Source of the DNA: Deltaproteobacteria bacterium
GTDB taxonomy: Bacteria; JADJOY01
Assembly: GCA_016713535.1 (NCBI GenBank)
Contig: JADJOY010000008.1
Location: 212,580-276,579, forward strand
Reading direction: 5' to 3'
Length of the DNA: 64,000 bases
Below, piece after piece: positions 502 to 23,075 of the stretch. The first letter of the stretch is position 1, and each line of letters starts with the position of its first letter. The notes beneath the pieces are model-generated. The model saw only the letters and a program-made list of their open reading frames with translations. It did no database searches and was not told the DNA's origin. A program made the position numbers and the translations under genes.

Positions 502-513
502 TTCGTTCGCTCC

Positions 514-545
514 TCGGGCGGGGGTGAACCCCGCCCCTACGACAG
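514..545. repeat. REP-like GC palindrome with flanking CTAC(G) (gggcggggg-tgaa-ccccgccc-ctacg)
   Basis: Perfect stem-loop followed by CTACG. It belongs to a family seen at >=9 intergenic sites in this window. Confidence 0.6.
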
Positions 546-562
546 CACTCGATCGGCCGAGG

Positions 563-865
563 TCAGGGACGCCCCGGGACGCGGTTGGGTTCGTCCACCA
601 GGAACACGCTGCCCGACTCGCACCACACGCACTCGTCGGCGTAGTTGTCGGGCTTGCGCTCGAGGTCTTTGAGCAGGTACCAGCGCCACGGTGGGTCGCC
701 GTGGTCGACAAACTCGCCGCTCAGCGTGCCGGTGAACTCCTGGCGGCCCGCGTAGCGAGTGCCCAGGATCGGGCCGCCGCCATCGCACTCGGCGCGCTTG
801 CCGGCAACGCTCGCGTCGAAGCCGGGCACGGCCCGGTCCGTCGTGGGCTTGGACGACTCGTCCAC
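563..865 (-). CDS. Small hypothetical protein (100 aa) with a CVWC motif, immediately downstream of the NMO gene
   Basis: The ORF has a diverse amino-acid composition (W, Y, F, K), unlike the R/A/G-rich antisense ORFs. It is adjacent to, and co-oriented with, the upstream gene. Confidence 0.35.
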   Translation of the reverse strand: MDESSKPTTDRAVPGFDASVAGKRAECDGGGPILGTRYAGRQEFTGTLSGEFVDHGDPPWRWYLLKDLERKPDNYADECVWCESGSVFLVDEPNRVPGRP

Positions 866-867
866 GT

Positions 868-1965
868 TCAGTCGTCGCCGGTCAGGTTCTCGAACGTGGT
901 GAGCGCTTCGTCGACCACGTCCATGACGATCTGGCGAGCGGGCTTCATGGCGGTCACGAAGCTCACGCCCTGGCCGGCCGCCTCGGTCATGAGGTCACCG
1001 CGGCGGTTGTCGTTGGCGCCCTGGATGTATGGCGAGCTGAGCAGCATCTGGTAGGGGGCGGGCAGGGGCGCGGGCGCCTCGGGCTTCTTCCACTCGGTGG
1101 TCCAGGGACACTTGAGCACGCGCATGGTCATGCCGGAGATCGACTTCGAGAAGTCGGTGTCCTCGGCCGTCGAGGCGATGAGGCGCTCCTTGATGATCAT
1201 GTCGACGTCGCTCTCGCGCGACGCGAGCCACAACGTACCCGTCCACACGCCCGCGGCGCCGAGGCAGAGCGCCGCCGCCAGGTGGCGGCCGGTGGTGACG
1301 CCGCCCGCGGCGATGACGGGCTTGCCCTGCGCGATCGACACCACCTCGGGGACGATGCTGAAGGTGCCCATCTCGCCGGTGTGGCCGGCGGCGTCGAAGC
1401 CCTGCGCGATGATGCCGTCCACGCCCGCCTCGATCTCGCGCTTGGCCTGGCGGGTCTTGCCGACCAGCCCGAACACCTTGATGCCGCGCGCGTGCGCCGC
1501 GTCGAGGATGAAGGCCGGGTTGCCGAGGCCCGAGGCCAGGAGCGGCACGCGCTCCTCGAGCAGCACCTCGAGCTGGGCGCGCGCCATCTGCTGGTTGAGG
1601 CCACCCCACTGGTGCAACGCTTCCTTCCCCTTGGGCTCGGGCACGTCGTACTTCTTGTGGATCATGTCAGCGTAGTCGCGGTGACCCTGCGGGATCTTCG
1701 ACTTGAGCTCGTCGAGGCCGCCCGCGGGCGGCACCGAGGCGGGCAGCACCAGGTCCACTCCGAACGGCTTCGTGCCGATGCGATCACGGATCCACTTGAG
1801 GTCGGCCGCGATCTCGTCGGGCGTGTGCATCGCCTCGCCGAGCACCGAGAAGCCACCGGCGTTGGTGACGGCCACCACCACGTCCTTGCAGTGAGTGAAG
1901 GCGATGATCGGGTACTCGATCCCGAACATTTCGCAGAACGGGGTGTGGAGCGGATTCTTCGCCAT
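868..1965 (-). CDS. Nitronate monooxygenase / 2-nitropropane dioxygenase family (NMO, FMN-dependent) oxidoreductase
   Basis: Translation from the internal Met (MAKNPLHTPFCEMFGIEYPIIAF...GGVTTGRHLAAALCLGAAGVWTGTLWLASRES...) matches the NMO/enoyl-reductase-II TIM-barrel family. The upstream 40 codons of the longest ORF are low-complexity and discounted. Confidence 0.8.
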   Translation of the reverse strand: MAKNPLHTPFCEMFGIEYPIIAFTHCKDVVVAVTNAGGFSVLGEAMHTPDEIAADLKWIRDRIGTKPFGVDLVLPASVPPAGGLDELKSKIPQGHRDYADMIHKKYDVPEPKGKEALHQWGGLNQQMARAQLEVLLEERVPLLASGLGNPAFILDAAHARGIKVFGLVGKTRQAKREIEAGVDGIIAQGFDAAGHTGEMGTFSIVPEVVSIAQGKPVIAAGGVTTGRHLAAALCLGAAGVWTGTLWLASRESDVDMIIKERLIASTAEDTDFSKSISGMTMRVLKCPWTTEWKKPEAPAPLPAPYQMLLSSPYIQGANDNRRGDLMTEAAGQGVSFVTAMKPARQIVMDVVDEALTTFENLTGDD

Positions 1966-2077
1966 CGCGGTGGTCTCCGGGCCGGGAACGCGGGTGGGAC
2001 GCCTTCGCTTCAGGGGCGAAAACCGCGCGGATCGAAGCGCCGAGGAGACGCCGAGCCGAGCCGGTTTCCATCCAAAA

Positions 2078-2091
2078 TGAAACATGTTCTA
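2078..2091. promoter_or_regulatory. KstR-type operator TGAAACATGTTCTA (TnnAACnnGTTnnA) in the divergent NMO / P450 intergenic region
   Basis: Exact match to the 14-bp palindromic KstR consensus, recalled from mycobacterial cholesterol-regulon work. It sits between divergently transcribed catabolic genes. Confidence 0.6.
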
Positions 2092-3316
2092 CTTGGGCCG
2101 TCAAGGCGCGAAATCCCCTGGTTTCGCGGCATTCGGAGGGTTCGGCGTGCTCGATTTCGATCCGTTCGACCCCGCCGTGATCCGCGACCCGTACCCCTGG
2201 TACGCGCGCCTGCGCGAGGAGGCGCCGCTTCACCACGTGGCGTCGCGGAACTACTGGGTGCTGACGCGCTACGCGGACGTCCGCGAGGCGTTCCGCGACC
2301 ACGAGACCTTCTCCTCCGCCCACGGAAACAGCCCCGAGCCCGGTTTCCAGCCCGGGCTCATCGCCACCGACCCGCCCAAGCACACACGGCTCCGCCGGAT
2401 CGTGCAGGCGGTGTTCACGCGGCGCGCGATCGAGGAGTCGTGGGGGGCGCGGATCCGGGCGATCTGCGAGGAGCTGATCGCGCCGTTGCTCGACGGCGAG
2501 CCGTTCGAGGCGTTCCGACGCCTCACGCTGCCGCTGCCGGTGCAGGTGGTCGTCGAGATGCTCGGCATCCCCGACGGCGACCTCGCCCAGTTCAAGGCCT
2601 GGTCGGACCACATGGTGGAGGGGGTGAGCCAGCACCTCGACGCCGACGTCCAGCGCCGCACCGCCGAGGCGTTCAAGGGGCTCAACGACTACTTTCACGA
2701 CAAGGTCCGCGAGCGCCGCACCGGCTCGGGCACCGACCTCATCACCCGCGTCGCCCAGGCGGGCGAGGGCGAGGCGCTCACCGACAAGGAAGCCTCGCAC
2801 TTCTGCATCTTGCTGCTCATCGCGGGGAACGAGACCACCACCAATCTGCTCGGCAACGCGCTGCTGGCGCTGATGGAGAATCCGGCCGAGCTGGCGAAGC
2901 TGCGCGAGCGGCGCGCGGAGCTCTTGCCGGGCGCCGTCGAGGAGATGCTGCGCTTCGGGCCGCCGTCGAAGTGCTTTTTCCGCCACACCACGCGCCCCGT
3001 CGAGATCCACGGGCAGACCATCCCCGACGGGGTGCGGGTGATGCTGACGATAGCTGCCGGCAACCGCGATCCGCGCGCGTTCCCCGAGCCGGACGCCTTC
3101 CGCGTCGACCGCGTCACCGACAACGACCACCTGTCGTTCGGCAGCGGCATCCACCACTGCCTGGGCTCGATGCTGGCGCGTCTCGAGACCGTCACCTTCT
3201 TCGACGTGCTGCTGGCGCGCGCGCGGGCGCTCGAGCCGTGCGGCGAGGCGCGGCTGGTCCACAACGTGATCGTCCGCGGTCCCGACCACCTGCCGATGCG
3301 GCTGGTGGTGGCGTGA
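2084..3316 (+). CDS. Cytochrome P450 monooxygenase
   Basis: Carries the FGSGIHHCLG heme-binding Cys loop, AGNETT I-helix and EEMLRF K-helix motifs. The true start may be the downstream GTG (about 2147). Confidence 0.85.
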   Translation: MFYLGRQGAKSPGFAAFGGFGVLDFDPFDPAVIRDPYPWYARLREEAPLHHVASRNYWVLTRYADVREAFRDHETFSSAHGNSPEPGFQPGLIATDPPKHTRLRRIVQAVFTRRAIEESWGARIRAICEELIAPLLDGEPFEAFRRLTLPLPVQVVVEMLGIPDGDLAQFKAWSDHMVEGVSQHLDADVQRRTAEAFKGLNDYFHDKVRERRTGSGTDLITRVAQAGEGEALTDKEASHFCILLLIAGNETTTNLLGNALLALMENPAELAKLRERRAELLPGAVEEMLRFGPPSKCFFRHTTRPVEIHGQTIPDGVRVMLTIAAGNRDPRAFPEPDAFRVDRVTDNDHLSFGSGIHHCLGSMLARLETVTFFDVLLARARALEPCGEARLVHNVIVRGPDHLPMRLVVA

Positions 3317-3337
3317 TGGGGCGTCACGGCCGCAGCG

Positions 3338-3432
3338 CGGGCGGGGATGAACCCCGCCCCTACGGTTCGGCGCGCCGCCGGAACGTCTCCGACCCCGCGA
3401 TCGTAGGGGCGGGCCCTGCGCCCGCCCGAATC
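3338..3432. repeat. REPIN-like doublet: two inverted REP palindromes (ggcgggg-atgaa-ccccgccc-CTACg ... cGTAG-gggcggg-ccctgc-gcccgccc)
   Basis: Two GC palindromes in opposite orientation, each flanked by GTAG/CTAC, lie between the P450 stop and the CMD gene start. Confidence 0.6.
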
Positions 3433-3445
3433 CGAGGAGCATTCG

Positions 3446-3802
3446 ATGCCATCCGAGAAGTTCGAGAAGGGCGCGAAGGTGTTCGAGGAGGTGATCGGCT
3501 TCCGCCCCCCCGAGGAGGGGCCGGCCTTCCTCAAGCTCACGATCGAGAACCTGTTCGCCGACGTGTGGGCGCGCGAAGGGCTGTCGATCCGCGACCGGCG
3601 CCTCATCACCCTCACGATCCTCCTCACGCAGATGAAGGAGGAGTCGCTGGCGCTTCACCTGCGCCAGGCGCTGAAGGGTGACCTGACCAAGAAGGAGCTC
3701 TCCGAGCTCATGATCCACGTGGCGCACTACGCGGGCTGGCCGGTCGGCCAGCTCGGCTTCGATACGTTGATGAAGACCCTCGCCGAGACGAAGAAGCCGT
3801 AG
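3446..3802 (+). CDS. Carboxymuconolactone decarboxylase (CMD/AhpD-like) family protein
   Basis: 118 aa: ...LKLTIENLFADVWAREGLSIRDRRLITLTILLTQ...HVAHYAGWP, which fits the CMD family. Confidence 0.7.
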   Translation: MPSEKFEKGAKVFEEVIGFRPPEEGPAFLKLTIENLFADVWAREGLSIRDRRLITLTILLTQMKEESLALHLRQALKGDLTKKELSELMIHVAHYAGWPVGQLGFDTLMKTLAETKKP

Positions 3803-3857
3803 CGGCGGGGCCTGTCCCCGCCCGAAGCTCCCGCCCACCGCAGAACGGAACCCGAGA

Positions 3858-5975
3858 ATGGAAGCGACTCGACAGATCTACTGGAACATCGCCTTCGGCA
3901 TGGCGATCTACGGTCTCGCCGCGGTCGCGGTGGGCTTCGCGGCTCGCGGAGTCTTCCGGCGCGTCCAGCTCTGGAAGCTCGGCGGCGCCGCGCTCCGCAC
4001 CGACCGCATGGGCGAGCGCGCCCGCGGTCTGGTCGCCGAGATCTTCGGCCATCGCCGGCTGCTGCGCGACCCGGTACCCGGCGTGGCGCACCTCTTTGTC
4101 TTCTACGGCTTCCTGGTCGAGCTGATCGCCACCGGCATGATCGCGGTCCAGGAGTGGACCGGCATCCACTATCTGAAGGGTCCGCTCTACCTCGGCTACT
4201 CGCTGGTGAGCGACGTGTTCGGGCTGCTCGGCCTCGTGGGCTGCGGGATCTTCCTTTGGCGGCGCGGGGTCCAGAAGGTGCCGCGCCTTCACACCGTGAC
4301 CGACGACTGGATCGCCATCGGGCTCTTGGCGCTGGTGTTCGCGCAGGGCTTCGTCGTCGAGGGCTTCCGCATCGCGGCCACCGAGCTGCGCCAGAACCCG
4401 GGGCTCGCGGTGTGGTCGCCGGGCGGCTTCCTGGTGGCGAAGGCGGTCTCCGGCCTGAGCGAGGGTGCGCTGCACGCGGTCCATCGCGGTGTGTGGTGGT
4501 TCCACGCGTTCACCGCGTTCGGGCTGCTCGGCTACATGGCGTACGGCAAGTTCAACCACATCTGGTTCGGCACCGCGAACATCCTGCTCCGCAACCTCGA
4601 GCCGAGCGGCAAGCTCGGCCACTTCGACATCGACAAGGCCCTCGAGAGCGACCCCGACGGCGACGTCGTGCTCGGCACCAGTCAGATCGAGCAGTACCCG
4701 TGGAAGAGTCTCCTGGACCTCGACGCCTGCATGAACTGCGGGCGCTGCGAGGCCGTGTGCCCGGCAAGCCAGAGCGGAGTGCCGCTGTCGCCGCGCAAGC
4801 TCATCCAGGACATGAAGGCTCACCTCACCGAGGTGGGCCCGGCGTCGCTGCTGGCGCGGCTCGCCAAGGGTGAAACGGTCGCTGGAGTCGCCGGTGCCGG
4901 GAACGGTGGGGCCGCCGGCGGGGATGCGGTTGCCGCACGCTCGCCGCTCTTCGGCGACGCGCCCGAGAACGCTACCGACCCGCGCCCCGCGGTCCTCGAG
5001 GTCGAGCTGTGGGGGTGTCGCACCTGCGGTGCCTGCACCCAGGAGTGCCCGGTCTTCATCGAGCACATCCCCAAGATAGTGGACATGCGCCGCCACCTGG
5101 TGATGACCGAGTCCAAGATGAGCGACGCGGCCCAGCTCATGCTCAAGAACATGGACGACCGCATGCACCCGTGGGCGAAGGCGCCCCACAACCGCGACGA
5201 GTGGTACCAGGACCTCGACGTGAAGATCCTCGGCGACGGCGCCACCGCCGAGTACCTCTACTGGGTGGGCTGTACCGGCGCGATGATCGACCGCAACATC
5301 CAGGTGACGCGCGCGATGGTGAAGGTGCTCAAGGCGGCGGGGGTGGACTTCGCGATCCTCGGCTCGGAGGAGGTCTGCACCGGCGACCCGGCGCGGCGCG
5401 TGGGCGGCGAGTTCACGTTCCAGCTCTGCGCCAAGCAGAACATCGAGACGCTCTCGAACTACGGCGTCAAGAAGATCATCACCACCTGCCCGCACTGCTT
5501 CAACAGCTACAAGAACGAGTACCCGGACTTCGGCGGCAACTACGAGGTGGTGCACCACACCCAGCTCATCGAGGAGCTGATCCGCGCCGGCAAGCTCAAG
5601 CTCAAGAGCGGGCTCGAGTCGCTCACCTACCACGACCCCTGCTACCTGGGGCGCCACAACGGTGTGTACGAGGCGCCGCGCGCGGTCCTCGACACCCTCG
5701 CGGCACCCGGCGGGCGGATCGAGATGGAACGCAGCCAGTCGAAGTCGCTCTGTTGTGGTGCGGGCGGCGGTTACGCGTGGATGGACGACGACCCCACCAC
5801 CCGCATCAACCACATGCGGCTCGCCGACGTGAAGGAGTGCGGCGCCAAGACCGCGGCGGTGTCGTGCCCGTTCTGCATGCAGATGTTCGACGACGCGCTC
5901 AAGACGCTCGATCCCGGCAAGACCATCCGCGCCGCGGACATCGCCGAGCTGGTGGCGGAGGCGCTCGAGGCGTGA
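3858..5975 (+). CDS. Membrane-bound Fe-S oxidoreductase, EtfD-like. It has an N-terminal NarI/HdrE-like transmembrane domain, 4Fe-4S ferredoxin motifs and two CCG (Cys-rich) domains
   Basis: N-terminal TM helices; CMNCGRCEAVCP and CRTCGACTQECP ferredoxin motifs; two CCG-type Cys-rich segments (CTGDP...TTCPHCFNS and CYLGRHN...CCGAGGG...SCPFCMQM). The architecture matches mycobacterial Rv0338c (EtfD). Confidence 0.8.
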   Translation: MEATRQIYWNIAFGMAIYGLAAVAVGFAARGVFRRVQLWKLGGAALRTDRMGERARGLVAEIFGHRRLLRDPVPGVAHLFVFYGFLVELIATGMIAVQEWTGIHYLKGPLYLGYSLVSDVFGLLGLVGCGIFLWRRGVQKVPRLHTVTDDWIAIGLLALVFAQGFVVEGFRIAATELRQNPGLAVWSPGGFLVAKAVSGLSEGALHAVHRGVWWFHAFTAFGLLGYMAYGKFNHIWFGTANILLRNLEPSGKLGHFDIDKALESDPDGDVVLGTSQIEQYPWKSLLDLDACMNCGRCEAVCPASQSGVPLSPRKLIQDMKAHLTEVGPASLLARLAKGETVAGVAGAGNGGAAGGDAVAARSPLFGDAPENATDPRPAVLEVELWGCRTCGACTQECPVFIEHIPKIVDMRRHLVMTESKMSDAAQLMLKNMDDRMHPWAKAPHNRDEWYQDLDVKILGDGATAEYLYWVGCTGAMIDRNIQVTRAMVKVLKAAGVDFAILGSEEVCTGDPARRVGGEFTFQLCAKQNIETLSNYGVKKIITTCPHCFNSYKNEYPDFGGNYEVVHHTQLIEELIRAGKLKLKSGLESLTYHDPCYLGRHNGVYEAPRAVLDTLAAPGGRIEMERSQSKSLCCGAGGGYAWMDDDPTTRINHMRLADVKECGAKTAAVSCPFCMQMFDDALKTLDPGKTIRAADIAELVAEALEA

Positions 5976-6394
5976 GCGCCACGGTGGAGGAGCGTCTCGC
6001 GCGGCTCGAGGACCTGGAAGTGATCCGCGACCTCGCGCGCCGCTACGCCGACGCGGTGTGGCGGCGCGACGTCGAGGGCGCGATCGCGCTCTTCACCGAG
6101 GACGGCGTGATGGACACCGGCGATCGCCCGCCCATCCGTGGGCGCGCCGCGCTCGGCGAGGCCTATCGCGCGATGGTGGGCGGCGCGAACGAGTTCCTGC
6201 CGTTCGTGGCCAACCACGTGATCGACCTCGACGGCGATCGCGCTACGGGCCGCTGCTACCTCGACCTGCGCGCCACCGTGGCGGGCGAGCGCCGGATCGG
6301 CGGTGGCCACTACGAAGACGTGTACAGGCGCACGACGGGCGGCTGGCGCTTCGCTGCGCGCAAGCTCGTGCTGCGCTTCCTCGCGCCCTACTGA
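5972..6394 (+). CDS. SnoaL-like / NTF2-like (ketosteroid-isomerase fold) protein
   Basis: The GTG start overlaps the upstream stop (GTGA). The sequence ...IRDLARRYADAVWRRDVEGAIALFTEDGVMDTGD...GGWRFAARKLVLRFL is an NTF2-like pattern. Confidence 0.6.
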   Translation: MSATVEERLARLEDLEVIRDLARRYADAVWRRDVEGAIALFTEDGVMDTGDRPPIRGRAALGEAYRAMVGGANEFLPFVANHVIDLDGDRATGRCYLDLRATVAGERRIGGGHYEDVYRRTTGGWRFAARKLVLRFLAPY

Positions 6395-6447
6395 GCGCGG
6401 GCGAGCTGGCGAGAGCCCCGACACACCCACGCGTCACGTGGAGGACC

Positions 6448-6612
6448 GTGTAGGGGCGGCCGCAAGGCCGCCCGCGATCGGGATCGGGATCGCCGGGGCT
6501 ACGACTGCGGGCGCCGATCAACGCCCGAGAAATCGGGCGGGCGTGAAGCCGCCCCTGCAAACCCATGCGGTTACCCGACGGGAGCGTAGGGGCGGCCGTG
6601 AGCCCGCCCGCG
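6448..6612. repeat. Cluster of three REP-like GC palindromes (tGTAG-gggcggcc-gcaa-ggccgccc; gggcgggc-gtgaa-gccgcccc; cGTAG-gggcgg...cccgccc)
   Basis: It lies in the intergenic region between convergent genes and has the same GTAG + palindrome architecture as the other sites. Confidence 0.55.
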
Positions 6613-6627
6613 GTCCCTCGCGCCGGC

Positions 6628-8303
6628 TCAGGTGAAGTGCCGGGGGAGGTCGCCCAGGGCGTAGCCGACGAAGCGGACGCCGTAGTGGTGGACGAGGTCG
6701 TGGACGGCGGCGAGGTAGGGCAGGCGCTTCTCGATCGCCATCGCGGGTAACCGCTCCGCGAGGCCCCGCGTCAGGGCGAGGGCGCTCTCCGGGCTGGTCG
6801 CCGCGGCGCTCAGGCACGGGTCGAGCGCGGCGCACCAGTGCTCGGATCCCCACGGCTCGACGAGCTCGCTCAGCGCCACCAGCTCGCCCGGCAGCTTCAT
6901 CGCCCAGTGGGTGCGCTCGATCCGATCCTTCGCGAACGCCTCGTTGACTGCCGCGACGTGGTCGCCGCGGCCGAGCTCGGCGGCGGCCGCGCCGAGGGCG
7001 ACGTAGCTTGCGACGGTGCCCGCCTTCGCGGCGCCGAGCTCACCGGCGTGGCGGAGGAACGTCTCGGCCTGCCCGGAAGGCACGAGCGCGTGCGCGGTCT
7101 CGGCGAGACGGTCGAGGTGCTCGCGGCCGAGCGCCGCGAGGATCGGCCCGAGGCGGGCGAGGGTGCCCGCGAAAAGCGGATGGTGCGCTGGCGGCACCCG
7201 TGCCGCCCATTCGCCCACGCCGCTCGTCGCCAGCGCGACCGCCTCCGGGGACCACGCGGCGCAGGTCACGAGCGCGTCGAGCCACGCCGCTGTGGCCTCG
7301 CCATCGCCGAGCAACCGCGCCGTCGAGGCCAGCCCCGCGAGTTGCGGCGCGAGCTCGCCGAGCACGAACGGCACCGCCTCGATCGAGAACTCGCGCACCA
7401 GCCGCGTGAGCTGGGCGACGTAGGCCTCCACGTGGCCGGGGGCGAGCGCGCCGAGCGATGCCACGAGGTTCCCGATCGCCGCGCGGTCGAGGGCGAGCGG
7501 GATCGGCGCGAGCGCGGCGAGGGCCTCGAGGGCCGGGCCGACGAGCAGCGGCTGGCCGCTGGCGAGGGTCGCGAGCGTGTCGGCGAGCGCCACGCTCACC
7601 GACGAGCGGCGTAGCGGCGGCGGCTCGGTGTCGCTGTTCAGGCCGTCGACGAGGGCGCGCGCCAGCTCACCGTGCCCGGCGCCGCACGCGATCTCGACGA
7701 CGCGCACCACGCCCGCGAGCTCGGCGGCGCGCTGCGGAGGGAGCTTCGAGATCGGCCGGTACTCGGCGAGCACCACGAGATCGGCGCCGCCGCCGAGGGC
7801 GCCCCGAACCACCGAGACCGGTGCGTGGTCGGCAAGCTCAGGAGCGACCCAGGTGCGCCCGCGGCGCGGCTCACTCCGCTCGCGTCGGCGCCGCCGACCG
7901 CCGCCGCGGTGCGGGTCAGGCGGCGGCGCTGCGCTCCGTACGGATGATCGAAGGTGAAGAGCTTCCGCTCGAGGACGGCGATCGACTCCACGGCCGCGTC
8001 GGCGCTTTCGCTCGCCGCCAGGACGCGCCCGAGCGCGCGCCACTCGGCGGCGGTCCCGGGGTAGAGCCGGCCGGGCGCCTCGACGATCGCGCGCAGCGCG
8101 TGCAGCACGCGAGATCGACTCGCGGCCTCGGTGAAGCGGCGCTCGAGCTCGCTCACGCACGCGAGCACGGGACCGAGCCGATCGGCGAGAACGGGCTCGA
8201 GCGAGGCGCGATCGATCGTCACGGGCGGGCGCTGGGCGGTCGGAGCCGTCGCGGTGCGTCGCAACGCGCGCGGCCACGTCGGAGGCGGCGCGGAAGATAC
8301 CAC
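6628..8303 (-). CDS. Hypothetical protein (about 555 aa) whose reading frame is broken by an apparent frameshift near 7850-7900
   Basis: The N-terminal 160 aa look protein-like in the frame of ORF 7638..8303 (MVSSAPPPTWPRALRR...LERKLFTFDHPYG...). The remainder looks protein-like in the frame of ORF 6628..8316 (...DLVVLAEYRPISKLPP...VVEIACGAGHGELARAL...HWCAALDPCLSAA...). Each frame degenerates into low-complexity sequence outside its own segment. Confidence 0.4.
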
Positions 8304-8357
8304 GGCACGATCGCACCGCCCGCGCTAGGATCGCGCGCCCCGAGCCGCGGAGCCCCG

Positions 8358-10566: not shown

Positions 10567-10734
10567 GCCCGGAGTGTCCGCGCGGGCGGCCTTGGGGGCA
10601 AGCGCCGCTGGCCGGGGGGCACGGTGCTGGAGCGTCGAGCACCACGATCGGCGAGCGGCCGACGGAGCGGCCGCGCTCCAGCCTCTCGCGTCCGCTGGCG
10701 CTGCGTCGCGGTTTCGGGGTAGGAAGACGCGCCC

Positions 10735-12742: not shown

Positions 12743-12787
12743 GGAGCTACCTCCGCGGGCTCGCGCGAAAGCCCGAGCGACGCGCCG

Positions 12788-13480: not shown

Positions 13481-13820
13481 GCGCGGCCGGCGGCCGGATT
13501 CAGCAAGGTTCGCGAGCCTCGAGACCGGTGTCCCATCGACGACCGCGCGCGCCGCGGCGAGGTCGGTCGGCTCGTCGATGTCGATGGAGCGGTGGCCGTC
13601 GATCGGAACACCGAGCCAGCCGCCGCGGATCCACGCCGCACGCTGGCAGCGCGGGTTGCGCCACTCGACGTTGACCGAGCCCGACGCGCGGTAGGCGCGC
13701 GCGCGGCCCTCGTGGAGGGCGCCGCGGATGGCGCCGGTGACGATCGGGTAGAGGCCGTCGGCGGCGCGCTCGAGCCACTCCTCGGGGCGGCTGCGCAGCC
13801 GGGTCCAGGTCGAGACCGTG

Positions 13821-14258: not shown

Positions 14259-14262
14259 GGCG

Positions 14263-14911: not shown

Positions 14912-14949
14912 GGCGGCGGTCGGTGGCGGGCGCGCATGCGCCGGCTGCG

Positions 14950-14985
14950 GCCCTCGACGGGGGACGGAGCCCCCGTCGCTACGAC
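14950..14985. repeat. REP-like palindrome (gacggggg-acggag-cccccgtc-gCTACg)
   Basis: Same family, with the loop sequence acggag shared with the element at 22997. Confidence 0.55.
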
Positions 14986-15086
14986 GATCGATCGCCGCGT
15001 GGTGCTCGTCGCGCGAGGGCCTTCGTGTCCCCCTCCGGCGGCGGGCGGGGATGGATGTCATGGCTGGCGCTCGCGGATCCATCGGT

Positions 15087-16399: not shown

Positions 16400-16958
16400 C
16401 GATTCTTCTCCGGTCGACTCGCAGGTCATCGAACTCGAACGCGGTGCGCGCGTAGTGGTTCTGATAGAGCGGGCTCGGGATGTAGCCGTGCAGGACGATC
16501 AGCTCGGTGGCGTCGTAGATGGGCGGCGTGTGCCACACCACGATCGCGCGGCGCCCCACGCGCGCCAGCTCGCGGAAGATCCCGACGGCGATCTCCTCGG
16601 ACGGCACATGCTCGAGCACCGACTTGCAGATCGCGAAGTCGAAGGCGCGATCGGCGAACGGCAGGCAGGTGGCGTCGGCGCGCACGAACCGGAAGCCGGG
16701 GTTCTCGACCCGCGCGAGCTCGACGAGGGGGGGGGAAATGTCGAGCCCCAGGTAGGCGCGTGAGTCGAAGAGCTCGCGGATCTCCGCGCCCTTGGCGCAG
16801 CCGACGTCGAGCACCGTACCGCCGCGGGTCATCTGCGCCATGACGGCGCGGATCGGCTGACGGTTCTTCGACGTGACCGGCACACCGGTCACGCGGTTCA
16901 CGTAGCTGCCCATGAAGAGCTGGGCATCCTCCGATGTGAGCGTGAGCCAGGAGTCCAC
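16362..16958 (-). CDS. Class I SAM-dependent methyltransferase
   Basis: The sequence GTVLDVGCAKGAEIREL...YLGLDISPPLV...RADATCLPFADRAFDFAICKSVLEHV carries the MT motifs. The start is either 16958 or the internal Met at 16913. Confidence 0.75.
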   Translation of the reverse strand: MDSWLTLTSEDAQLFMGSYVNRVTGVPVTSKNRQPIRAVMAQMTRGGTVLDVGCAKGAEIRELFDSRAYLGLDISPPLVELARVENPGFRFVRADATCLPFADRAFDFAICKSVLEHVPSEEIAVGIFRELARVGRRAIVVWHTPPIYDATELIVLHGYIPSPLYQNHYARTAFEFDDLRVDRRRIDEAFDLWVVERL

Positions 16959-17319
16959 GACCGTTTTCCCCCCGAATGGTCGACAGTCGTCTGAGCAAGC
17001 CCCGCGCCAGCAGCGCAGGGGCGTCGCACGGGGGCCGGCGCTCGTCCGTCAGGAGGCCGTCATCCCGTCGAATTCACGAGGAAAACGGCGCGACGCAGAG
17101 GCGAGATCGCGAGCGCGATGGCGGGCGCGCGACGGCATCACCCGCGTCGCGACTAGCCAGGTTGAACCGGCCCGAAATGCCTACCGGGACGGAATTTCCC
17201 CGGATTCGAGGGGGCGCCGCGAGCGGATCGGCTCCGCGCGCACCCCGACCGCCGCGGCGGACCTCGCGGGCGACGCGAGCGACCGCGCCGCGTCCGCCGC
17301 GTGAACCCGATGCGGGACG

Positions 17320-18625
17320 TCAGCGGGTCGGGTCCTCGTGGAAGTGGGACGGCTCTTTGTTGGCGAGCCGGGAGCGGGCCTGCGACGCGGCGCGTTTGCC
17401 GCTCAGGTACGCGGCCTCGACGGTCGCGGCGATCGGCGAGCTCTCGGTGGCAGAGCCGGCCCAGAAGAGCGCACCGGTGTCGGGCGCGGCGAGATCGCGC
17501 CGCGCACCGACGCCGCCGGGACGGAGGAACGTGTAGCCGCCGAGCGCGAAGGGGTCGGTCGACCAGTCGATGCGCTTGAAGCCGGTGAGCAGGTCCTTGG
17601 GCTTTGCAGCCGGGAAGTGGCGCACCAGGTCGGTCGCGACCAGCTCGAGCGCCGCCTTGTCGTCGAGAGAGGCGACGTGCGCCGCGCGCGGCCCCGTGAA
17701 GTAGGCAGTCAGCACCGGCCAGCGCCGGGGCGCCCCGTAGAAGACGTTCCAGAACAGCGTCACCGGGCCCACCGCGCAGGCGAGGGTGTTCATGGCGTCG
17801 GGCCAGAACGGCTCGCGGAAGCGCAGCAGGAGCTTGCTGACGGGGCCCATGACGATGCGCTCGAGGGCGCTCCTCTTGGTAGCGGGGAGCTCGGGCTCGA
17901 AGCGGATATTGCCCGACTTGAGCACCCCCACCGGCAGGGTGGTGATCGCCGTACGCGCCTCGATCTCCTCGCCGGAGACGCCGCGGACCGTGACCTGCTC
18001 GCGGCGGAAGCGGATCGACTCGACGACGAAGCCGTGCTGCACGTCGAGGGGTTTGCCCATGTGCTGGATCACCGCGTCGTAGCCCGAGGCGACGCGGTGG
18101 TTCACGCCGCTCTCGAGGTGGACGACGCCGTCGTCGACGAGCCCGAGCAGGCCGACCTCGTCCAGGCTCGCGGGCAGGTGAGCGGTGAGCACCATCGATG
18201 CGAGCGCGCGGCCGCGGCCGCGGTAGCCCTTGCGATCGAGGAACTCGCGGCCCCGAGATGTCGGGCGGACGGACGCGGCGGATCTGGTGGAGGATCGGGA
18301 AGGTCGGCCAGATCTCGGGGTGCAGGAGGATCAGCGGCAACCAGTTGGTCTTGCCGCCGACGTTGAACATGAAGCCCTTCATGTTGGGGGTGGGACGGGT
18401 GGCGACACCCGCGGCGCGGACGTCGGGCCAGGTCGCGGCCCCCACGCCGTGCACGAACTCGGCGCCCGCCTCGACCGGATCCGAGACCAGGTCCCGGATC
18501 GACCACACCCGCCCCCCGACGCGGTCACGCGCTTCCAGCACTCGCACCGAGAGCCCGTGCTGTGCGAGGTCGCGTGCCGCCGCGATCCCGGCCATCCCGG
18601 CGCCAATCACCACCGCATCCAGCAT
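17320..18625 (-). CDS. FAD-dependent amine oxidase (flavin-containing) with an apparent frameshift near 18200-18240
   Basis: The N-terminus in one frame reads MLDAVVIGAGMAGIAAARDLAQHGLSVRVLEARDRVGGRVWS... (GxGxxG plus the amine-oxidase signature). The C-terminus in another frame reads ...TGALFWAGSATES...AATVEAAYLSGKRAA. Neither frame is complete on its own. Confidence 0.7.
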
Positions 18626-18735
18626 TCGTGTCCCTCACGGATCGAAAGCGCAACGCATATCCCACCGGCCCGCCGCGCTTCAACAACATTCGTCTCCGGA
18701 GCGCGCCTAGCTCGAGGTGGGGTTATGTTCCGCAC

Positions 18736-19485
18736 ATGGCCCGGCGAGGCGCGCGCGCGAGGCTCGCGTGGGGGATGGTGGCGGTGCTGGTGACGGCCGA
18801 GATGGGCGCGGCGGCCGGCTCGAGCTCCTCGACGGCGAAGCCGAGCGGCCCGTCGAGCGCCACCCCGGTCCGCAAGCGAGAGCCCGCGAGCACGACCAAG
18901 CCCGCCACGGCGAAGCCGGCTGTGCGCACCGGTGCCTCCCCCTCCGAGCTCAGGGCGGAGTCGGTGGTGGCGACCACCACCGCCGCCGAGCTCGAGCAGC
19001 GCCTCGGGCGCGCCGCGCGCGCCCCGGAGGCGGTCTTCGAGGTGCCGGGAACCGAGTGGCGGCTCAGGATCGCGTCGCTGGCGGTGGCCATCACGAGTGG
19101 GGACGTGGTCATCTCGCTGGTGCCGGATCCCGACGTGGGCACGATCCGGATCCGCGGTCGCCCGAGCCTGGTGGGCCGGAACGCGTGGCGCGCCGAGCGC
19201 CTCCGGATCTCGGTGGATACGCCGATCCTCGCCGAGCAGCTCGAGACCTGGATCGGCCAGCAGATCCGCGGCACCGAGCCGCGCTCGCTGGACGCGATCT
19301 TCGGCCCCAGCGCTACCTTCACGAGCACGCTCGCCGAGGGCGCGGCCCGGCCGCGGGTGCTGCCGCTCGTGAGCGAGATCCGCGCCGGCCGCCTCGAGCC
19401 GCAGTCGCTCTCCGTCGAGGGCGCGGCGATCCGCCTCGCCGCCGAGCTCAAGCCGGATGCGCCGGCTGCCGCGCCCGGGCGCTGA
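18736..19485 (+). CDS. Hypothetical secreted/anchored protein
   Basis: MARRGARARLAWGMVAVLVTAEMGAAAG is a signal-like N-terminus. The remainder is moderately complex with no recognizable domain. It is divergent from the amine oxidase. Confidence 0.45.
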   Translation: MARRGARARLAWGMVAVLVTAEMGAAAGSSSSTAKPSGPSSATPVRKREPASTTKPATAKPAVRTGASPSELRAESVVATTTAAELEQRLGRAARAPEAVFEVPGTEWRLRIASLAVAITSGDVVISLVPDPDVGTIRIRGRPSLVGRNAWRAERLRISVDTPILAEQLETWIGQQIRGTEPRSLDAIFGPSATFTSTLAEGAARPRVLPLVSEIRAGRLEPQSLSVEGAAIRLAAELKPDAPAAAPGR

Positions 19486-19521
19486 GCCCGGCGGCGCCGC
19501 GGGATCGATCGTCCGACCGCG

Positions 19522-20667
19522 TCACACGATGCAGGGTGTCGGCGCGTCCAGGACGGTGCTCGCGACCAGCTCCTCGAGGTAGCGCGTGTCCCACCACGAG
19601 AGCTGCCAGTGCTTGGCGCGCCGGAAGAAGAGCTGGATGTCGTGCTCGATGGTGAAGCCGATGCCGCCGTGGACCTGCTCGGCCTTGGCGGTGACGTCGC
19701 GGAACATCTGGCACGCGAAGAGCTTGGCCATGGGGGCCAGACGCTCGATCGGCCGCCCGGTTGCGCGCGCCCACGCGGCCTCGTAGACCAGCGTACGGCC
19801 GCCGCTCACCAGCGTCGCGCAGTCGGCGAGGTAGTGGGCGATCGCCATGAAGGCACCGATCGGCTTGCCGAACTGCTCGCGGATCTTGGCGTAGTGGTTG
19901 GTCATCTCGAGGGCGCGCTCGGCGCCGCCCGCCGCCTGCGCGGCAAGGTAGATGATTCCCTCGAGGAGCGTGTCGCTCCAGGTCTTCCAGCCGCTGCCGG
20001 CGGCGCCGATGCGGTCCGCGGTGGACACCCGCACGTTGCTGAAGGTGACCTGGTACTGGCAGTCGGAGCCGAGGGTCTTCTGCTGGGTGAGGGTGACGCC
20101 AGGCGCCTTGGGATCGACCAGCACGAGATCGATCGCATCGGGAGCGTCGCCGGTGCGGACGAGCACGAGAAGGCGGGTGGCGGACGACGCGAACTGGACG
20201 TGGCGCTTGGTGCCGTCGAGGACCAGCGAGCCGCCATCGGCCTTCGCGCGCAGCGCGACACCCTTGGGGCCGTAGCCGCGGTCGGGCTCGAGCCAGGCGG
20301 GGGTGAGGATCACCTCGCCGGACGCGATCTTCGGCAGCCACGCCTTCTTCTGCTCGTCCGAGCCCGCGCGCAGGATCGCCCCCGCGCTCGCGACACAGCT
20401 CACGAAGTGGGGCGACGGCGCCAGCGAGCGGCCGAACTCCTCGTACACCACGACACCTTCGATCGCCGACTGGCCGGCGCCTCCGTAGGCCTCGGGCAAG
20501 GTGAGCCCGAGGACGCCGAGCTCGCCGAGCTTCGCCCACAGCTCGGGCGAGTAGCCGGTGGGATCGTCCTCCAGGGTGCGCAGGGTCGCGAGGGTGGCGT
20601 ACTGGTCGCACACGCCGCGCACCATGTCGCGCAGCATGTTCTGCTCGTCGTTGAATTCCAGATCCAT
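19522..20667 (-). CDS. Acyl-CoA dehydrogenase
   Basis: 381 aa: ...YGGAGQSAIEGVVVYEE...VLDGTKRHVQFAS...QVHGGIGFTIEHDIQLFFRRAK shows ACAD family hallmarks. Confidence 0.9.
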   Translation of the reverse strand: MDLEFNDEQNMLRDMVRGVCDQYATLATLRTLEDDPTGYSPELWAKLGELGVLGLTLPEAYGGAGQSAIEGVVVYEEFGRSLAPSPHFVSCVASAGAILRAGSDEQKKAWLPKIASGEVILTPAWLEPDRGYGPKGVALRAKADGGSLVLDGTKRHVQFASSATRLLVLVRTGDAPDAIDLVLVDPKAPGVTLTQQKTLGSDCQYQVTFSNVRVSTADRIGAAGSGWKTWSDTLLEGIIYLAAQAAGGAERALEMTNHYAKIREQFGKPIGAFMAIAHYLADCATLVSGGRTLVYEAAWARATGRPIERLAPMAKLFACQMFRDVTAKAEQVHGGIGFTIEHDIQLFFRRAKHWQLSWWDTRYLEELVASTVLDAPTPCIV

Positions 20668-21249: not shown

Positions 21250-21761
21250 CGGTTCCCCCGTCGATAGCCGAGGCCGGTGTAGATCTCCTTGCCGACCATC
21301 GTGCCGTCCTGGTTGAAGTACTCGACGTCGATCACCCAGAAGCGCCCGAGGCCGAGCTTGGTCTGCTTCAGGTCGCTCACGGAGCGCAGCACCTGGTGGG
21401 CGCGCAGGTGGTCGCCGGGGCGGATCGGCGCGTAGAAGATGACCTCGTTGTCGGTCATCACCGCCTCGGGCAGCTCGAGCCTCTCCTTGAGGTCGAAGTG
21501 GATCTGCAGCGGCAGGCGCTGCTTGGTGCGTCCGGGCGCCCAGTGGTGAGGGCGGAACCACACCGACATCATGGTGGGCGGAGTCATGAGGCCGCCGGTG
21601 ATCTCGCGGGCCACGGCCTCGTCCCAGAAGAGTGGGTTGCCGTTCTGGGTGGAGGAGCAGCTCGAGTAGACGTAGCCCTTCTCGACCTCGAACTCGGGCT
21701 CTTCCTCGTAGCGGACCTGGTCGATCCAGCCCTTCACTTCGTCGGGTAGCGGCTCGGACAT
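21246..21761 (-). CDS. Hot-dog fold dehydratase N-terminal-type subunit (ChsH1-like partner)
   Basis: 171 aa, ...NPLFWDEAVAREITGGLMTPPTMMSVWFRP...; a hot-dog family protein paired with the downstream MaoC gene. Confidence 0.75.
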   Translation of the reverse strand: MSEPLPDEVKGWIDQVRYEEEPEFEVEKGYVYSSCSSTQNGNPLFWDEAVAREITGGLMTPPTMMSVWFRPHHWAPGRTKQRLPLQIHFDLKERLELPEAVMTDNEVIFYAPIRPGDHLRAHQVLRSVSDLKQTKLGLGRFWVIDVEYFNQDGTMVGKEIYTGLGYRRGNR

Positions 21762-21808
21762 CGTGATCTCCGGTCAGCGGCGGAACGGGTGGGCGAAGGC
21801 TTCGATCG

Positions 21809-22951
21809 TCATTCGACCGCGCCCGCGGCGCGCAGCTCCGCGATGCGCTCGGGCGTGACGCCGGCGGCGGCCAGAAGGGCGTCGGAGTCGGTCTCGGTGG
21901 CGGCGCGAGCGGCGTGCGGCGGGAGCTCCTCGCGCCCGCCGGCGAGGACCTCGCTCACCTGACGGAAGGCGCCGCGCTCGGGGTGCCGGGCCTGGACGAA
22001 GGCGCGACGGGCAACGAACTGATCGTCCTCGGCGACCTCGGGGATGGTGCTCACCGGCGCGACACAGGTGTCCTTGGCGGCGAGCTCGGCGATCCACGCG
22101 TCGCGATCGCGGGTGGCGAAGGCGGCGCGGAACGCGGCGCGGATGTCCTCTTGCTTCGCGTCGTCGAGCTGGTGCGGGATCCACTCGGCGCAGCCGAGGA
22201 GCTTGCAGAGGTTGGCGAAGAACGCGGGCTCGATCGCGCCCACCGAGAGCCAGCGGCCGTCGGCGCAGGCGTAGACGTCGTAGCAGGCGTAGCGGCCGGT
22301 GAGGATGTCGCCGCCGGGGCCGGGCTCCTCGCCGGTGGCGAGGAAGCGATCGACGTGGAGCGACATGAGGTGGAGGACGCCGTCGGCGACCGAGACGTCG
22401 AGCCACGCGCCCGCGCCGCTGCGCTCGCGCTGGAGGAGCGCGGCGAGGATCGCGATGACCGCGTGCATGCCCCCCGCGGCGCTGTCGGCGACGGTGGCGC
22501 CGGGGATCGCGGGGCCACCGTCCTCGCGCCGTCCTGAGCAGTGAAGGAACCCGCCGACGGCGAGATAGTTGATGTCGTGGCCGGCCCAGGTCGCGCGCGG
22601 CCCGTCCTGGCCGTAGCCGCTCGTCGAGCACAGGATCGCGCGCGGGTTCACGGCGCGGAGCGCCTCCCAGCCGATGCCGAGGCGCGCCACCACGCCGGGC
22701 CGGTAGCTCTCGATCACGACGTCGGCCTTCGCGGCCAGCGCGAGGAACGCCTCCTTGCCCTCGGCAGCCTTGAGGTCGATGCGGACGCGCTTCATGCCGC
22801 GCCCGGCGCCGTAGGAGAAGAAGGGAGGTTCGATCTGCACCGAACCCTTCTTCGCGGTCGGGCTCACCTTCACGACGGTCGCGCCGTAGTCGGCGAGGAT
22901 CCGCGAGGCGCGCGCCGCCGGACCGACGCTCGCCAGGTCGAGCACCGTCAC
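21809..22951 (-). CDS. Family III CoA-transferase (CaiB/BaiF/Frc family)
   Basis: MTVLDLASVGPAARASRILADYGATVVKVSP...IESYRPGVVARLG...CSTSGYGQDGP shows the family III motifs. The true start may be slightly upstream. Confidence 0.85.
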   Translation of the reverse strand: MTVLDLASVGPAARASRILADYGATVVKVSPTAKKGSVQIEPPFFSYGAGRGMKRVRIDLKAAEGKEAFLALAAKADVVIESYRPGVVARLGIGWEALRAVNPRAILCSTSGYGQDGPRATWAGHDINYLAVGGFLHCSGRREDGGPAIPGATVADSAAGGMHAVIAILAALLQRERSGAGAWLDVSVADGVLHLMSLHVDRFLATGEEPGPGGDILTGRYACYDVYACADGRWLSVGAIEPAFFANLCKLLGCAEWIPHQLDDAKQEDIRAAFRAAFATRDRDAWIAELAAKDTCVAPVSTIPEVAEDDQFVARRAFVQARHPERGAFRQVSEVLAGGREELPPHAARAATETDSDALLAAAGVTPERIAELRAAGAVE

Positions 22952-22994
22952 GCCCCTCGAGCCGAACCAGCGAGCCGGTCATGGGGCCGCGCCT

Positions 22995-23075
22995 CCCCGG
23001 CGTGAAGGGCGCGACGGTCGGGCTCGCGGGGGGACGGAGCCCCCCGCGCTACGAACGGCGCCGTAGCGACGGGGG
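22995..23075. repeat. REPIN-like doublet (gcgggggg-acggag-cccccgc-gCTACg ... cGTAGc-gacggggg-ttccat-cccccgtc)
   Basis: Two inverted GTAG-anchored palindromes separated by about 10 bp, in the gap between the CoA-transferase start and the ACAD stop. Confidence 0.6.

What the first reader, a model, noticed from the sequence alone, without database searches (positions are those of the whole stretch)
514..23075. A family of GTAG-anchored GC-rich palindromes (REP/REPIN-like) populates the intergenic gaps
At least nine elements share this architecture: a 5' (C)GTAG, a 7-9-bp G/C stem and a 4-7-nt loop, or the reverse complement ending in CTAC(G).

The sites are:
- 514-545;
- 3338-3365 and 3400-3432 (an inverted doublet);
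- 6448-6480, 6525-6560 and 6578-6612;
- 14950-14985;
- 22995-23025 and 23030-23075 (an inverted doublet);
- possibly 3808-3830.

Two loop variants recur (tgaa/atgaa/gtgaa, and acggag).

A conserved GTAG followed by a palindrome is the defining feature of REPs mobilised by RAYT (IS200-like TnpA) transposases. The inverted doublets match the REPIN model. No RAYT gene lies in this window.
Basis: partly seen in the sequence, partly recalled or inferred. Interest (0 to 1): 0.55.

Follow-up and report, generated by a model that had tools for sequence, protein, structure and literature searches.

The report
GTAG-tagged REP hairpins in intergenic gaps
The GC-rich hairpins between the genes are real copies of a well-known class of small bacterial repeats (REP/REPIN elements, which a dedicated tyrosine transposase called RAYT copies in other bacteria), so this is an ordinary find, new only for this uncultured wastewater bacterium.

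Summary
Ten elements lie in window 516-23090, all outside coding sequence. Each has a GTAG tag (once GCAG), an 8-9 bp G/C stem (one of 7 bp, one degenerate) and a 4-6 nt loop.

- **Chance:** tagged perfect hairpins number 9, against 0.32 expected from dinucleotide shuffles.
- **Stems:** they differ between copies by two-sided compensatory changes.
- **Two families:** A is GTAG-GGGCGGGG-N4-5-CCCCGCCC, with seven copies. B is GTAG-CGACGGGGG/CGCGGGGGG-N6, with three copies.
- **Family A elsewhere:** the strict core occurs in at least 119 genome stretches from about 13 phyla, with conserved loops. It flanks RAYT genes in Rheinheimera and sits in frame inside RAYT genes of a very large family. This matches the published REP type of TnpA_REP subclass 2.4.
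- **Family B elsewhere:** it recurs at unrelated loci in two metagenome contigs and in a related MAG. One of those loci has the same two-REP doublet with the same 10-nt spacer.
- **Relatives:** syntenic regions lack the elements at 516 and 3339/3403. A closer relative keeps the one at 3799.

No RAYT gene is in the window. The rest of this genome could not be searched, so present-day mobilisation is inferred.

Verdict: a new member of a known kind, of low interest.

The parts
516..540 (-). Family A REP, single copy: GTAG GGGCGGGG ttcac CCCCGCCC. It lies between two minus-strand genes, 23 nt after the stop of ORF 563-865 and 14 nt before the ATG (502) of the ETF gene.
   Evidence: DNA fold -11.4 kcal/mol, z -3.0. 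Absent from the syntenic spacer of relative L137.
3339..3363 (-). Family A REP, left half of a doublet with the GTAG ends facing inwards: GTAG GGGCGGGG ttcat CCCCGCCC.
   Evidence: Lies in the 129-nt P450|CMD spacer. Absent in L130, L133, L134, L137 and L138.
3403..3427 (+). Family A REP, right half of the doublet (39-nt spacer): GTAG GGGCGGGC cctgc GCCCGCCC. Stem pair 8 is flipped G-C to C-G.
   Evidence: In the minimum-energy fold the two REPs pair with each other in one long hairpin. Three short-read contigs start at 3399 and a fourth at 3430.
3799..3822 (+). Family A REP with one substitution at the foot of the stem: GTAG C GGCGGGG cctgt CCCCGCC. Its GTAG supplies the TAG stop codon of the CMD gene 3446-3802.
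   Evidence: Kept, with a 3-nt deletion, at the same place in L137 and L138. Absent in L130 and L133, whose CMD proteins are 4-5 residues longer.
6450..6473 (+). Family A REP, first of a cluster of three in alternating orientation: GTAG GGGCGGCC gcaa GGCCGCCC. Stem pairs 7 and 8 are both flipped.
   Evidence: Fold -12.3 kcal/mol.
6535..6558 (-). Degenerate family A REP: tag GCAG, GGGCGGC ttcac GCCCGCCC with an imperfect stem.
6586..6609 (+). Family A REP with one stem mismatch: GTAG GGGCGGCC gtga GCCCGCCC. With 6535-6558 it forms a doublet with the tags inwards (27-nt spacer).
   Evidence: 6522-6615 folds into one long hairpin, -30.4 kcal/mol, z -3.0.
14955..14982 (-). Family B REP, single copy: GTAG CGACGGGGG ctccgt CCCCCGTCG, between two minus-strand ORFs.
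   Evidence: Fold -11.6 kcal/mol.
23025..23052 (-). Family B REP, variant B2: GTAG CGCGGGGGG ctccgt CCCCCCGCG. Left half of a doublet with the tags inwards.
   Evidence: Stem pairs 3 and 4 differ from B1 by changes on both sides.
23063..23090 (+). Family B REP, variant B1: GTAG CGACGGGGG ttccat CCCCCGTCG. Right half of the doublet (10-nt spacer), between ORF 21774-22982(-) and the acyl-CoA dehydrogenase gene 23141-24322(-).
   Evidence: The same B1+B2 doublet with a 10-nt spacer occurs at an unrelated locus in metagenome contig L129 (93% identity over 68 nt).

Best explanation
The elements are repetitive extragenic palindromes (REPs) of the GTAG-tagged superfamily. They fall into two sequence families, with some copies arranged as inverted doublets or clusters of the REPIN/BIME type.

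From established work on E. coli TnpA_REP, the mechanism runs as follows. On single-stranded DNA the hairpin, with the unpaired GTAG at its foot, is bound and cut by a REP-associated HUH tyrosine transposase (RAYT, also called TnpA_REP). That enzyme is encoded once or a few times elsewhere in the genome. It spreads the elements into intergenic DNA as non-autonomous passengers.

Shown here:
- the architecture and its excess over chance;
- selection for base pairing in the stems;
- the extragenic position;
- recurrence at unrelated loci and in other genomes;
- gain or loss of copies between relatives;
- the physical association of the family A sequence with RAYT genes in other bacteria.

Inferred:
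- that this genome encodes matching RAYT(s);
- that the copies are, or recently were, mobile;
- any secondary role of transcribed copies as RNA hairpins, for example in 3'-end stabilisation or attenuation between co-directional genes.
For: - **Excess over chance:** 9 tagged hairpins against 0.32 in shuffles. All 9 core hairpins in the window carry the tag.
- **Selection on pairing:** among 11 copies (8 from the window, 3 from L128/L129), stem positions 1, 3, 4, 7 and 8 change on both sides. Only 1 of 94 pairs is mismatched.
- **Position:** all copies lie outside coding sequence, among ordinary metabolic genes. They have no T-tract and are not flagged by the terminator scan of 1-20000, which covers eight of the ten.
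- **Family A in other genomes:** GTAGGGGCGGGG-N5-CCCCGCCC occurs in at least 119 stretches of genomes from about 13 phyla. The loop was left free in the pattern, yet 108 of 155 matches have CTTGT, CTTGC, TTTAT or TTTAC.
- **RAYT link, flanking:** in Rheinheimera (L080, L028) these REPs flank ORFs that pass Pfam Y1_Tnp. The ORFs score 76-78 bits on NCBIfam REP_Tyr_transpos, just under its 80-bit cut-off.
- **RAYT link, internal:** in a Dehalococcoidia MAG (L047) an inverted REP pair sits in frame inside such a gene. More than 7,400 relatives exist, some named RayT by JGI. 95 of the 120 best-scoring relatives carry the peptide that the REP encodes, mostly as AGASPAPT.
- **Family B elsewhere:** it occurs at unrelated loci in L128 and L129, which have 70-72% G+C, and in relative L137. 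L129 repeats the B1+B2 doublet as a unit.
- **Gain and loss:** syntenic spacers of relatives lack the copies at 516 and 3339/3403. The nearer relative retains 3799.
- **Assembly breaks:** four of six short-read contigs covering the region end within 4 nt of the REP at 3403-3427. This is the behaviour of a sequence repeated in that sample.
Against: - No RAYT gene is in the 64 kb, nor in about 17 kb of additional sequence from relatives.
- The genome-wide copy number of either family in this organism is unknown.
- The metagenome scan found only two further exact copies of B1.
- The window's family A loops (ttcac, ttcat, gcaa, gtga) are rare among the family A copies sampled elsewhere.
- The elements are confined to the first 23 kb, and 41 kb of the window has none.
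- No RAYT association was found for family B.
- Several spacers in relatives are too diverged to define clean insertion boundaries. Loss therefore cannot be told apart from gain.
Confidence: 0.85

Rival explanations
1. Fossil REPs. The elements are true REPs by descent, but the matching RAYT has been lost from this genome. The copies are then immobile relics that decay or persist only where they are harmless or useful.
For: No RAYT is in the window or in the flanking sequence of relatives. Several copies are degenerate: 6535-6558 has a GCAG tag, 6586 has a stem mismatch, 3799 has a foot substitution, and the L137 copy has a 3-nt deletion. The literature reports loss of REPtrons in many E. coli strains (PMC3733652).
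Against: Five copies have perfect stems and intact tags. Copies at 516 and 3339/3403 are absent in a relative of 88.6% nucleotide identity, which suggests fairly recent gain. A 64-kb window is far too small to expect a single-copy gene.
Confidence: 0.1
2. Regulatory RNA hairpins that evolved in place, such as terminators, mRNA 3'-end stabilisers or attenuators. On this view they have no history as mobile DNA.
For: All copies are intergenic. The three single copies (516, 3799, 14955) have the GTAG strand in the sense direction of the flanking co-directional genes. REPs are known to act as RNA elements in other bacteria (PMC3733652 abstract).
Against: They have no T-tract and no hit in the terminator scan. 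Copies in doublets lie on both strands. The same 25-28-nt sequences recur at unrelated loci and across phyla with the tag conserved. They are also embedded in RAYT genes. A secondary RNA role is compatible with the main explanation, but it does not explain where the elements came from.
Confidence: 0.03
3. Remnants or miniature derivatives of another transposon class, such as IS200/IS605 end hairpins or MITEs, rather than RAYT-dependent REPs.
For: IS200/IS605 ends also carry subterminal hairpins that a related Y1 transposase recognises (PMC6006769 abstract).
Against: There is no tnpA or tnpB nearby. The units are only 24-28 nt long, with the canonical GTAG directly at the foot of the stem. Identical family A units flank and sit inside proteins whose best match is the RAYT family, not IS200 (76-78 bits against 23 bits).
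Confidence: 0.02

Closest known systems
GTAG-tagged REP superfamily (Di Nocera et al. 2013, PMC3733652; Nunvar et al. 2010, PMC2817692)
   Same: An unpaired GTAG sits at one end of a 6-13 bp G/C-rich stem with a short loop. Sub-families differ by complementary stem changes. Several families coexist in one genome. Elements occur as single copies, dimers and clusters. They lie mainly between co-directional or convergent ORFs.
   Different: The host is an uncultured MAG labelled 'Deltaproteobacteria bacterium' with 71% G+C. The exact stems are not among the consensus sequences I could read in those papers. Both clean doublets have the GTAG ends inside (the TT type), which is the minority arrangement in most published families.
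REPs associated with TnpA_REP subclass 2.4 (Quentin et al. 2018, PMC6006769)
   Same: Family A has the canonical GTAG with three consecutive G-C pairs at the foot of the stem. [quoted passage not shown]
   Different: The window's copies carry unusual loops (ttcac, ttcat, gcaa, gtga) rather than the dominant CTTGY and TTTAY loops. No subclass 2.4 gene could be looked for in this genome.
REPINs of Pseudomonas fluorescens and E. coli BIMEs (Bertels and Rainey 2011, PMC3116915)
   Same: Two inverted REPs are separated by a short spacer and can fold into one long hairpin, as at 3339-3427 and 6535-6609. One doublet recurs as a unit at another locus. The cluster at 6450-6609 alternates in orientation like a BIME.
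   Different: Population size, the single-copy matching RAYT and vertical co-inheritance all belong to the REPIN concept, and none could be tested. The two REPs of the 23025-23090 doublet fold separately rather than into one long hairpin.

Membership tests
GTAG-tagged REP | Conserved GT[AG]G tetranucleotide at the 5' foot of a stem-loop | tested here: met
   9 of 10 elements have GTAG directly (or, at 3799, one base) before the stem, and one has GCAG. Every core hairpin in the window carries the tag.
GTAG-tagged REP | Short G/C-rich imperfect palindrome (about 20-40 nt) whose pairing, not its sequence, is conserved | tested here: met
   Elements are 24-28 nt with stems of 7-9 bp. Five stem positions show changes on both sides, and 1 of 94 pairs is mismatched. 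Fold z-scores run from -2 to -3.
GTAG-tagged REP | Extragenic location | tested here: met
   All ten lie outside ORFs supported by GC3 or Pfam. 3799 overlaps only a stop codon.
GTAG-tagged REP | High copy number dispersed through the host genome (usually more than 100 copies) | not testable with these tools
   Only 64 kb of this genome is available. Indirect evidence: 10 copies in 23 kb, further copies at unrelated loci in L128, L129 and L137, and short-read contigs that end at the REP.
GTAG-tagged REP | Matching RAYT/TnpA_REP gene in the genome, typically flanked by the same REPs (a REPtron) | not testable with these tools
   None in the window or in the flanks of relatives, and the rest of the genome cannot be reached. 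For the family A sequence the association is shown in other taxa: L080, L028 and L047 and the RAYT family found.
REPIN | Two REPs in inverted orientation separated by a short spacer and able to form one long hairpin | tested here: met
   3339/3403 (39-nt spacer) and 6535/6586 (27-nt spacer) pair with each other in the minimum-energy fold. 23025/23063 (10-nt spacer) is inverted, but the two REPs fold separately.
REPIN | The doublet, not the single REP, is the unit that is copied | tested here: inconclusive
   One doublet (B1+B2, 10-nt spacer) recurs at an unrelated locus in L129. Three single copies in the window and single copies in L128 and L137 also exist, and the sample is too small.
Intrinsic (Rho-independent) terminator | G/C-rich hairpin followed directly by a T-tract, oriented with the upstream gene | tested here: not met
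   No T-tract follows any element. None of the eight in the scanned 1-20000 is among the terminator-like sites. Members of doublets lie on both strands.

The most novel reading that the evidence does not exclude
An uncultured, myxobacteria-like wastewater bacterium may hold two co-resident and still active REP/REPIN populations.
- One would be a loop-diverged branch of the family A REP that is shared across phyla, which would imply that RAYT subclass 2.4 was acquired horizontally.
- The other would be a lineage-restricted family B served by a second RAYT that has not been described.
This would extend living REPIN-RAYT systems well beyond the Gammaproteobacteria in which they have been studied. 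It would also offer a case where a REP has rebuilt a gene's stop codon (3799-3802).
Probability: 0.3. Interest if true: 0.4.

Novelty: new member of a known kind. Interest (0 to 1): 0.22.

Why it matters
The main value is for annotation and assembly.
- These repeats break short-read assemblies of this organism.
- They create spurious small ORFs; for example, ORF 3363-3530(-) picks up the REP-encoded peptide motif.
- They should be masked or labelled as REPs rather than treated as regulatory novelties.

Biologically the finding adds a high-G+C, deltaproteobacterial or myxobacteria-like host to the range of GTAG REPs. It also gives one more example of an identical REP hairpin shared by many phyla together with its RAYT. 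That bears on the debate over whether REPIN-RAYT systems are inherited vertically or spread horizontally. It does not open a new question.

Tried and rejected
- **Rfam:** a search at gathering thresholds found no family anywhere in the window.
- **Reaching the rest of the genome:** exact-protein look-ups for five window proteins were run. Four were not on record. The CMD protein returned only contigs of 2 kb or less. The genome could therefore not be walked to look for a RAYT or to count copies.
- **Collection scans:** The single metagenome scan went on the strict B1 pattern and found two contigs.
- **Literature by sequence:** a full-text search for the string GTAGGGGCG returned only primer-type matches. 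The supplements of Di Nocera 2013 held no matching consensus.
- **Alignment of the two families:** MAFFT did not place the 3' arms of families A and B in register, so stem pairs were tabulated by script instead.
- **Other repeats:** a direct-repeat search of the whole window found no further dispersed family.
- **Rejected as a family member:** the tagged hairpin at 20485-20512 lies inside an acyl-CoA dehydrogenase gene and has an unrelated stem. It fits the roughly 0.3 chance hits expected.
- **Rejected readings:** CRISPR, integron attC sites and transcription-factor operators. There is no array. Pairing rather than sequence is conserved. The tag is asymmetric.


Full report
**Observation.** The window has 71.2% G+C. 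Reading the listed sites and re-extracting them in a common orientation shows ten elements built the same way. Each has GTAG, then directly a G/C stem, a loop of 4-6 nt and the complementary arm. The stem is 8-9 bp in eight copies, 7 bp at 3799 and imperfect at 6535-6558.

Family A has seven copies:
- 516-540(-)
- 3339-3363(-)
- 3403-3427(+)
- 3799-3822(+)
- 6450-6473(+)
- 6535-6558(-), degenerate, with tag GCAG
- 6586-6609(+), with one stem mismatch

Family B has three copies:
- 14955-14982(-)
- 23025-23052(-)
- 23063-23090(+)

The last doublet lies about 30 nt to the right of the positions given. The 'possible' site is at 3799-3822, and it turns out to be a true family A copy with one substitution at the foot of the stem.

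**Is it more than chance?** GTAG followed by a perfect stem of at least 7 bp and a loop of 3-7 nt occurs 9 times. In 200 dinucleotide-preserving shuffles the mean is 0.32 and the maximum 2. For stems of at least 8 bp the count is 8 against 0.065. One of the nine, at 20485 inside a gene, is probably the expected chance hit.

Looked at the other way round, the window holds 126 perfect hairpins with stems of at least 7 bp. Every hairpin of the two core types carries the tag, 6 of 6 and 3 of 3.

Across eleven copies (eight from the window, three from related contigs), stem positions 1, 3, 4, 7 and 8 vary by changes on both sides. Only 1 of 94 pairs is mismatched. Pairing is therefore what is conserved. 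Single-strand DNA folds give the expected hairpins, with z-scores from -2 to -3.

**Surroundings.** The neighbouring genes are ordinary metabolic genes:
- an ETF subunit (2-502, minus strand)
- a nitronate monooxygenase-like gene (868-2085, minus)
- a P450 (2084-3316, plus)
- a carboxymuconolactone decarboxylase family gene, CMD (3446-3802, plus)
- a CCG/4Fe-4S protein (3858-5975, plus)
- an MFS transporter
- a GH5 glycosidase
- acyl-CoA dehydrogenases

All elements lie outside coding sequence, mostly between co-directional genes. None is followed by a T-tract. None of the eight inside the scanned 1-20000 is reported by the terminator scan. Rfam has no match anywhere in the window.

The doublets at 3339/3403 (39-nt spacer) and 23025/23063 (10-nt spacer) have their GTAG ends facing each other. 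This is the 'TT' dimer in the nomenclature of Di Nocera et al.. The three copies at 6450-6609 alternate in orientation, like a BIME. In the minimum-energy folds, the REPs of 3339/3403 and of 6535/6586 pair with each other in one long hairpin, as in the REPIN model. The two REPs of the 23025/23063 doublet fold separately.

There are no copies in 24000-64000.

**Elsewhere: family A.** The records carry labels from about 13 phyla, including:
- Acidobacteriota
- Bacteroidota (Hymenobacter)
- Gammaproteobacteria (Rheinheimera, Actinobacillus)
- Desulfobacterota
- Chloroflexota
- Planctomycetota
- Bacillota (Flavonifractor, Oscillospiraceae)
- Armatimonadota, Rokubacteria, Nitrospirota, Actinomycetota, Elusimicrobiota and Chitinispirillales

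. The loop was left unconstrained in the pattern, yet 108 of 155 matches have CTTGT, CTTGC, TTTAT or TTTAC. These are therefore homologous copies and not chance palindromes. Many loci also hold sister variants with compensated stems, such as GGGCGACC/GGTCGCCC and GGGCGGCC/GGCCGCCC, and inverted pairs.

**Link to RAYT.** I took the E. coli K-12 RayT sequence from its annotated record and used it as a seed against the ORFs of all fetched loci.
- It found three RAYT-like ORFs in Rheinheimera sp. YQF-1 (L080), one in R. soli (L028) and one in a Dehalococcoidia MAG (L047).
- In L080 and L028 the genes are flanked by doublets made of GTAGGGGCGACC... and GTAGGGGCGGGG... REPs.
- The proteins pass Pfam Y1_Tnp. 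Their best NCBIfam match is REP_Tyr_transpos at 76-78 bits (cut-off 80), against 23 bits for IS200.
- In L047 an inverted REP pair lies in frame inside the gene.
- A database search with that protein gave more than 7,400 relatives at E of 1e-10 or better, some named 'REP element-mobilizing transposase RayT' by JGI. 95 of the 120 best-scoring relatives contain the peptide encoded by the family A REP, most often as AGASPAPT. The word-based candidate selection of that tool favours such hits, so this fraction is not an unbiased estimate.

This is what Quentin et al. [quoted passage not shown]

**Elsewhere: family B and the window's own lineage.** The single metagenome scan, for the strict B1 pattern, found two contigs from one sample (L128 and L129, 70-72% G+C). 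Their flanks are unrelated to the window. L129 carries the same B1+B2 doublet with the tags inwards and the same 10-nt spacer (93% identity over 68 nt).

The window's CMD protein is identical to NCBI MBK7973496.1, 'MAG... [Deltaproteobacteria bacterium]'. It also occurs in wastewater metagenome assemblies. Four of the six short-read contigs covering it end within 4 nt of the REP at 3403-3427, as expected for a sequence repeated in that sample.

Syntenic contigs from relatives allow a comparison of presence and absence:
- L137 and L138 (88.6% and 87.5% nucleotide identity) lack the REPs at 516 and 3339/3403. They keep the 3799 element with a 3-nt deletion.
- More distant relatives (L130, L133, L134) lack all of these. 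Their CMD proteins are 4-5 residues longer, so in the window's lineage the REP's GTAG supplies the stop codon.
- L137 carries a family B copy at a different locus, between its two ETF genes.
- L133 has degenerate REP-like hairpins in a spacer where the window has none.

The elements therefore come and go on the time scale of species divergence.

**What could not be shown.** No RAYT is in the window (best E-value 2.9 with a 100-sequence RAYT profile), nor in the extra sequence from relatives. The remainder of the genome was out of reach. The presence of a matching RAYT, the genome-wide copy number and current activity are therefore inferred. No RAYT association was found for family B.

**Mechanism.**
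- Established knowledge: E. coli TnpA_REP binds the REP hairpin with its GTAG on single-stranded DNA and cleaves it (PMC3479197 and PMC8266576, from the abstracts listed). REPs and REPINs are regarded as non-autonomous elements copied by RAYTs (PMC3116915 and PMC3337134).
- Shown here: the DNA features, the excess over chance, dispersal, turnover, and the association of family A with RAYT genes in other taxa.
- Inferred: that the same process placed these copies, and that transcribed copies may also act as RNA hairpins between co-directional genes.

**Comparison and novelty.** The elements meet every testable defining feature of GTAG-tagged REPs. They fail the defining feature of intrinsic terminators. 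Family A corresponds to the subclass 2.4 REP type. Family B resembles published Stenotrophomonas-type REPs such as GGTAGCGCCGGGCCATGCCCGGCG (PMC2817692) in layout, but not in sequence.

The host taxon, the unusual loops and family B itself appear not to have been described in the papers I could read. The kind of element is well known. This is a new member of a known kind, and its interest is low.

Noticed in passing
window 3799-3802, with the CMD gene 3446-3802: The GTAG tag of a REP supplies the TAG stop codon of the CMD gene. The protein is 4-5 residues shorter than in relatives that lack the element (L130, L133). The arrangement is kept in L137 and L138.
   Followed up: yes
L047 6596-7426 (-), with REPs at 6855-6879 and 6901-6925: A RAYT gene in a Dehalococcoidia MAG carries an inverted REP pair in frame, encoding ...VGAPLAGA...RAGASPAPT.... 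95 of the 120 best-scoring homologues carry the REP-encoded peptide, mostly as AGASPAPT. This matches the published subclass 2.4 peculiarity.
   Followed up: partly
L080 4896-7920 (Rheinheimera sp. YQF-1): Three near-identical RAYT ORFs lie within 3 kb. They are separated by REP doublets and by a run of five family A REPs at an exact 81-nt period. Multi-copy RAYTs are unusual for a gene family usually described as single-copy.
   Followed up: no
window 3399 and 3430 (ends of contigs L001-L004); L128 position 19: Short-read metagenome contigs of this organism end at or next to REPs, so these elements fragment assemblies of the lineage.
   Followed up: partly
window 24000-64000: There are no REP copies at all in 41 kb, against ten in the first 23 kb, although intergenic gaps of several hundred bases exist there (for example 24367-24790, 28705-29546 and 37000-37955).
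   Followed up: no
window 58365-58490: A 21-nt tandem repeat of about five to six units (TTCGGCGCGTTCGAGCGCCAC-like) lies inside a + strand ORF. It would encode a repeated seven-residue motif.
   Followed up: no
L133 3368-3723: A relative has a 354-nt CMD|CCG spacer, against 55 nt in the window. It holds degenerate REP-like hairpins (TTGGGGCGGCCGCGAGGCCGCCC and GGGCGGGCTCTCGCCCCCCCTAC), so REP content differs from spacer to spacer between relatives.
   Followed up: partly
L056, L057 (Thermoanaerobaculia MAGs); L036, L086, L114 (Oscillospiraceae and Gemmiger MAGs): Other GTAG-tagged hairpin families sit alongside family A, for example GTAG CCCGGGAT ttca ATCCCGGG. Some gut Bacillota loci are very dense in such REPs: 9 in 1.9 kb and 11 in 8 kb.
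   Followed up: no
window 3363-3530 (-): A spurious stop-free frame across the REP doublet gives the best, though non-significant (E 2.9), match to the RAYT profile, through the REP-encoded peptide motif. Gene callers may report such ORFs as hypothetical proteins.
   Followed up: partly
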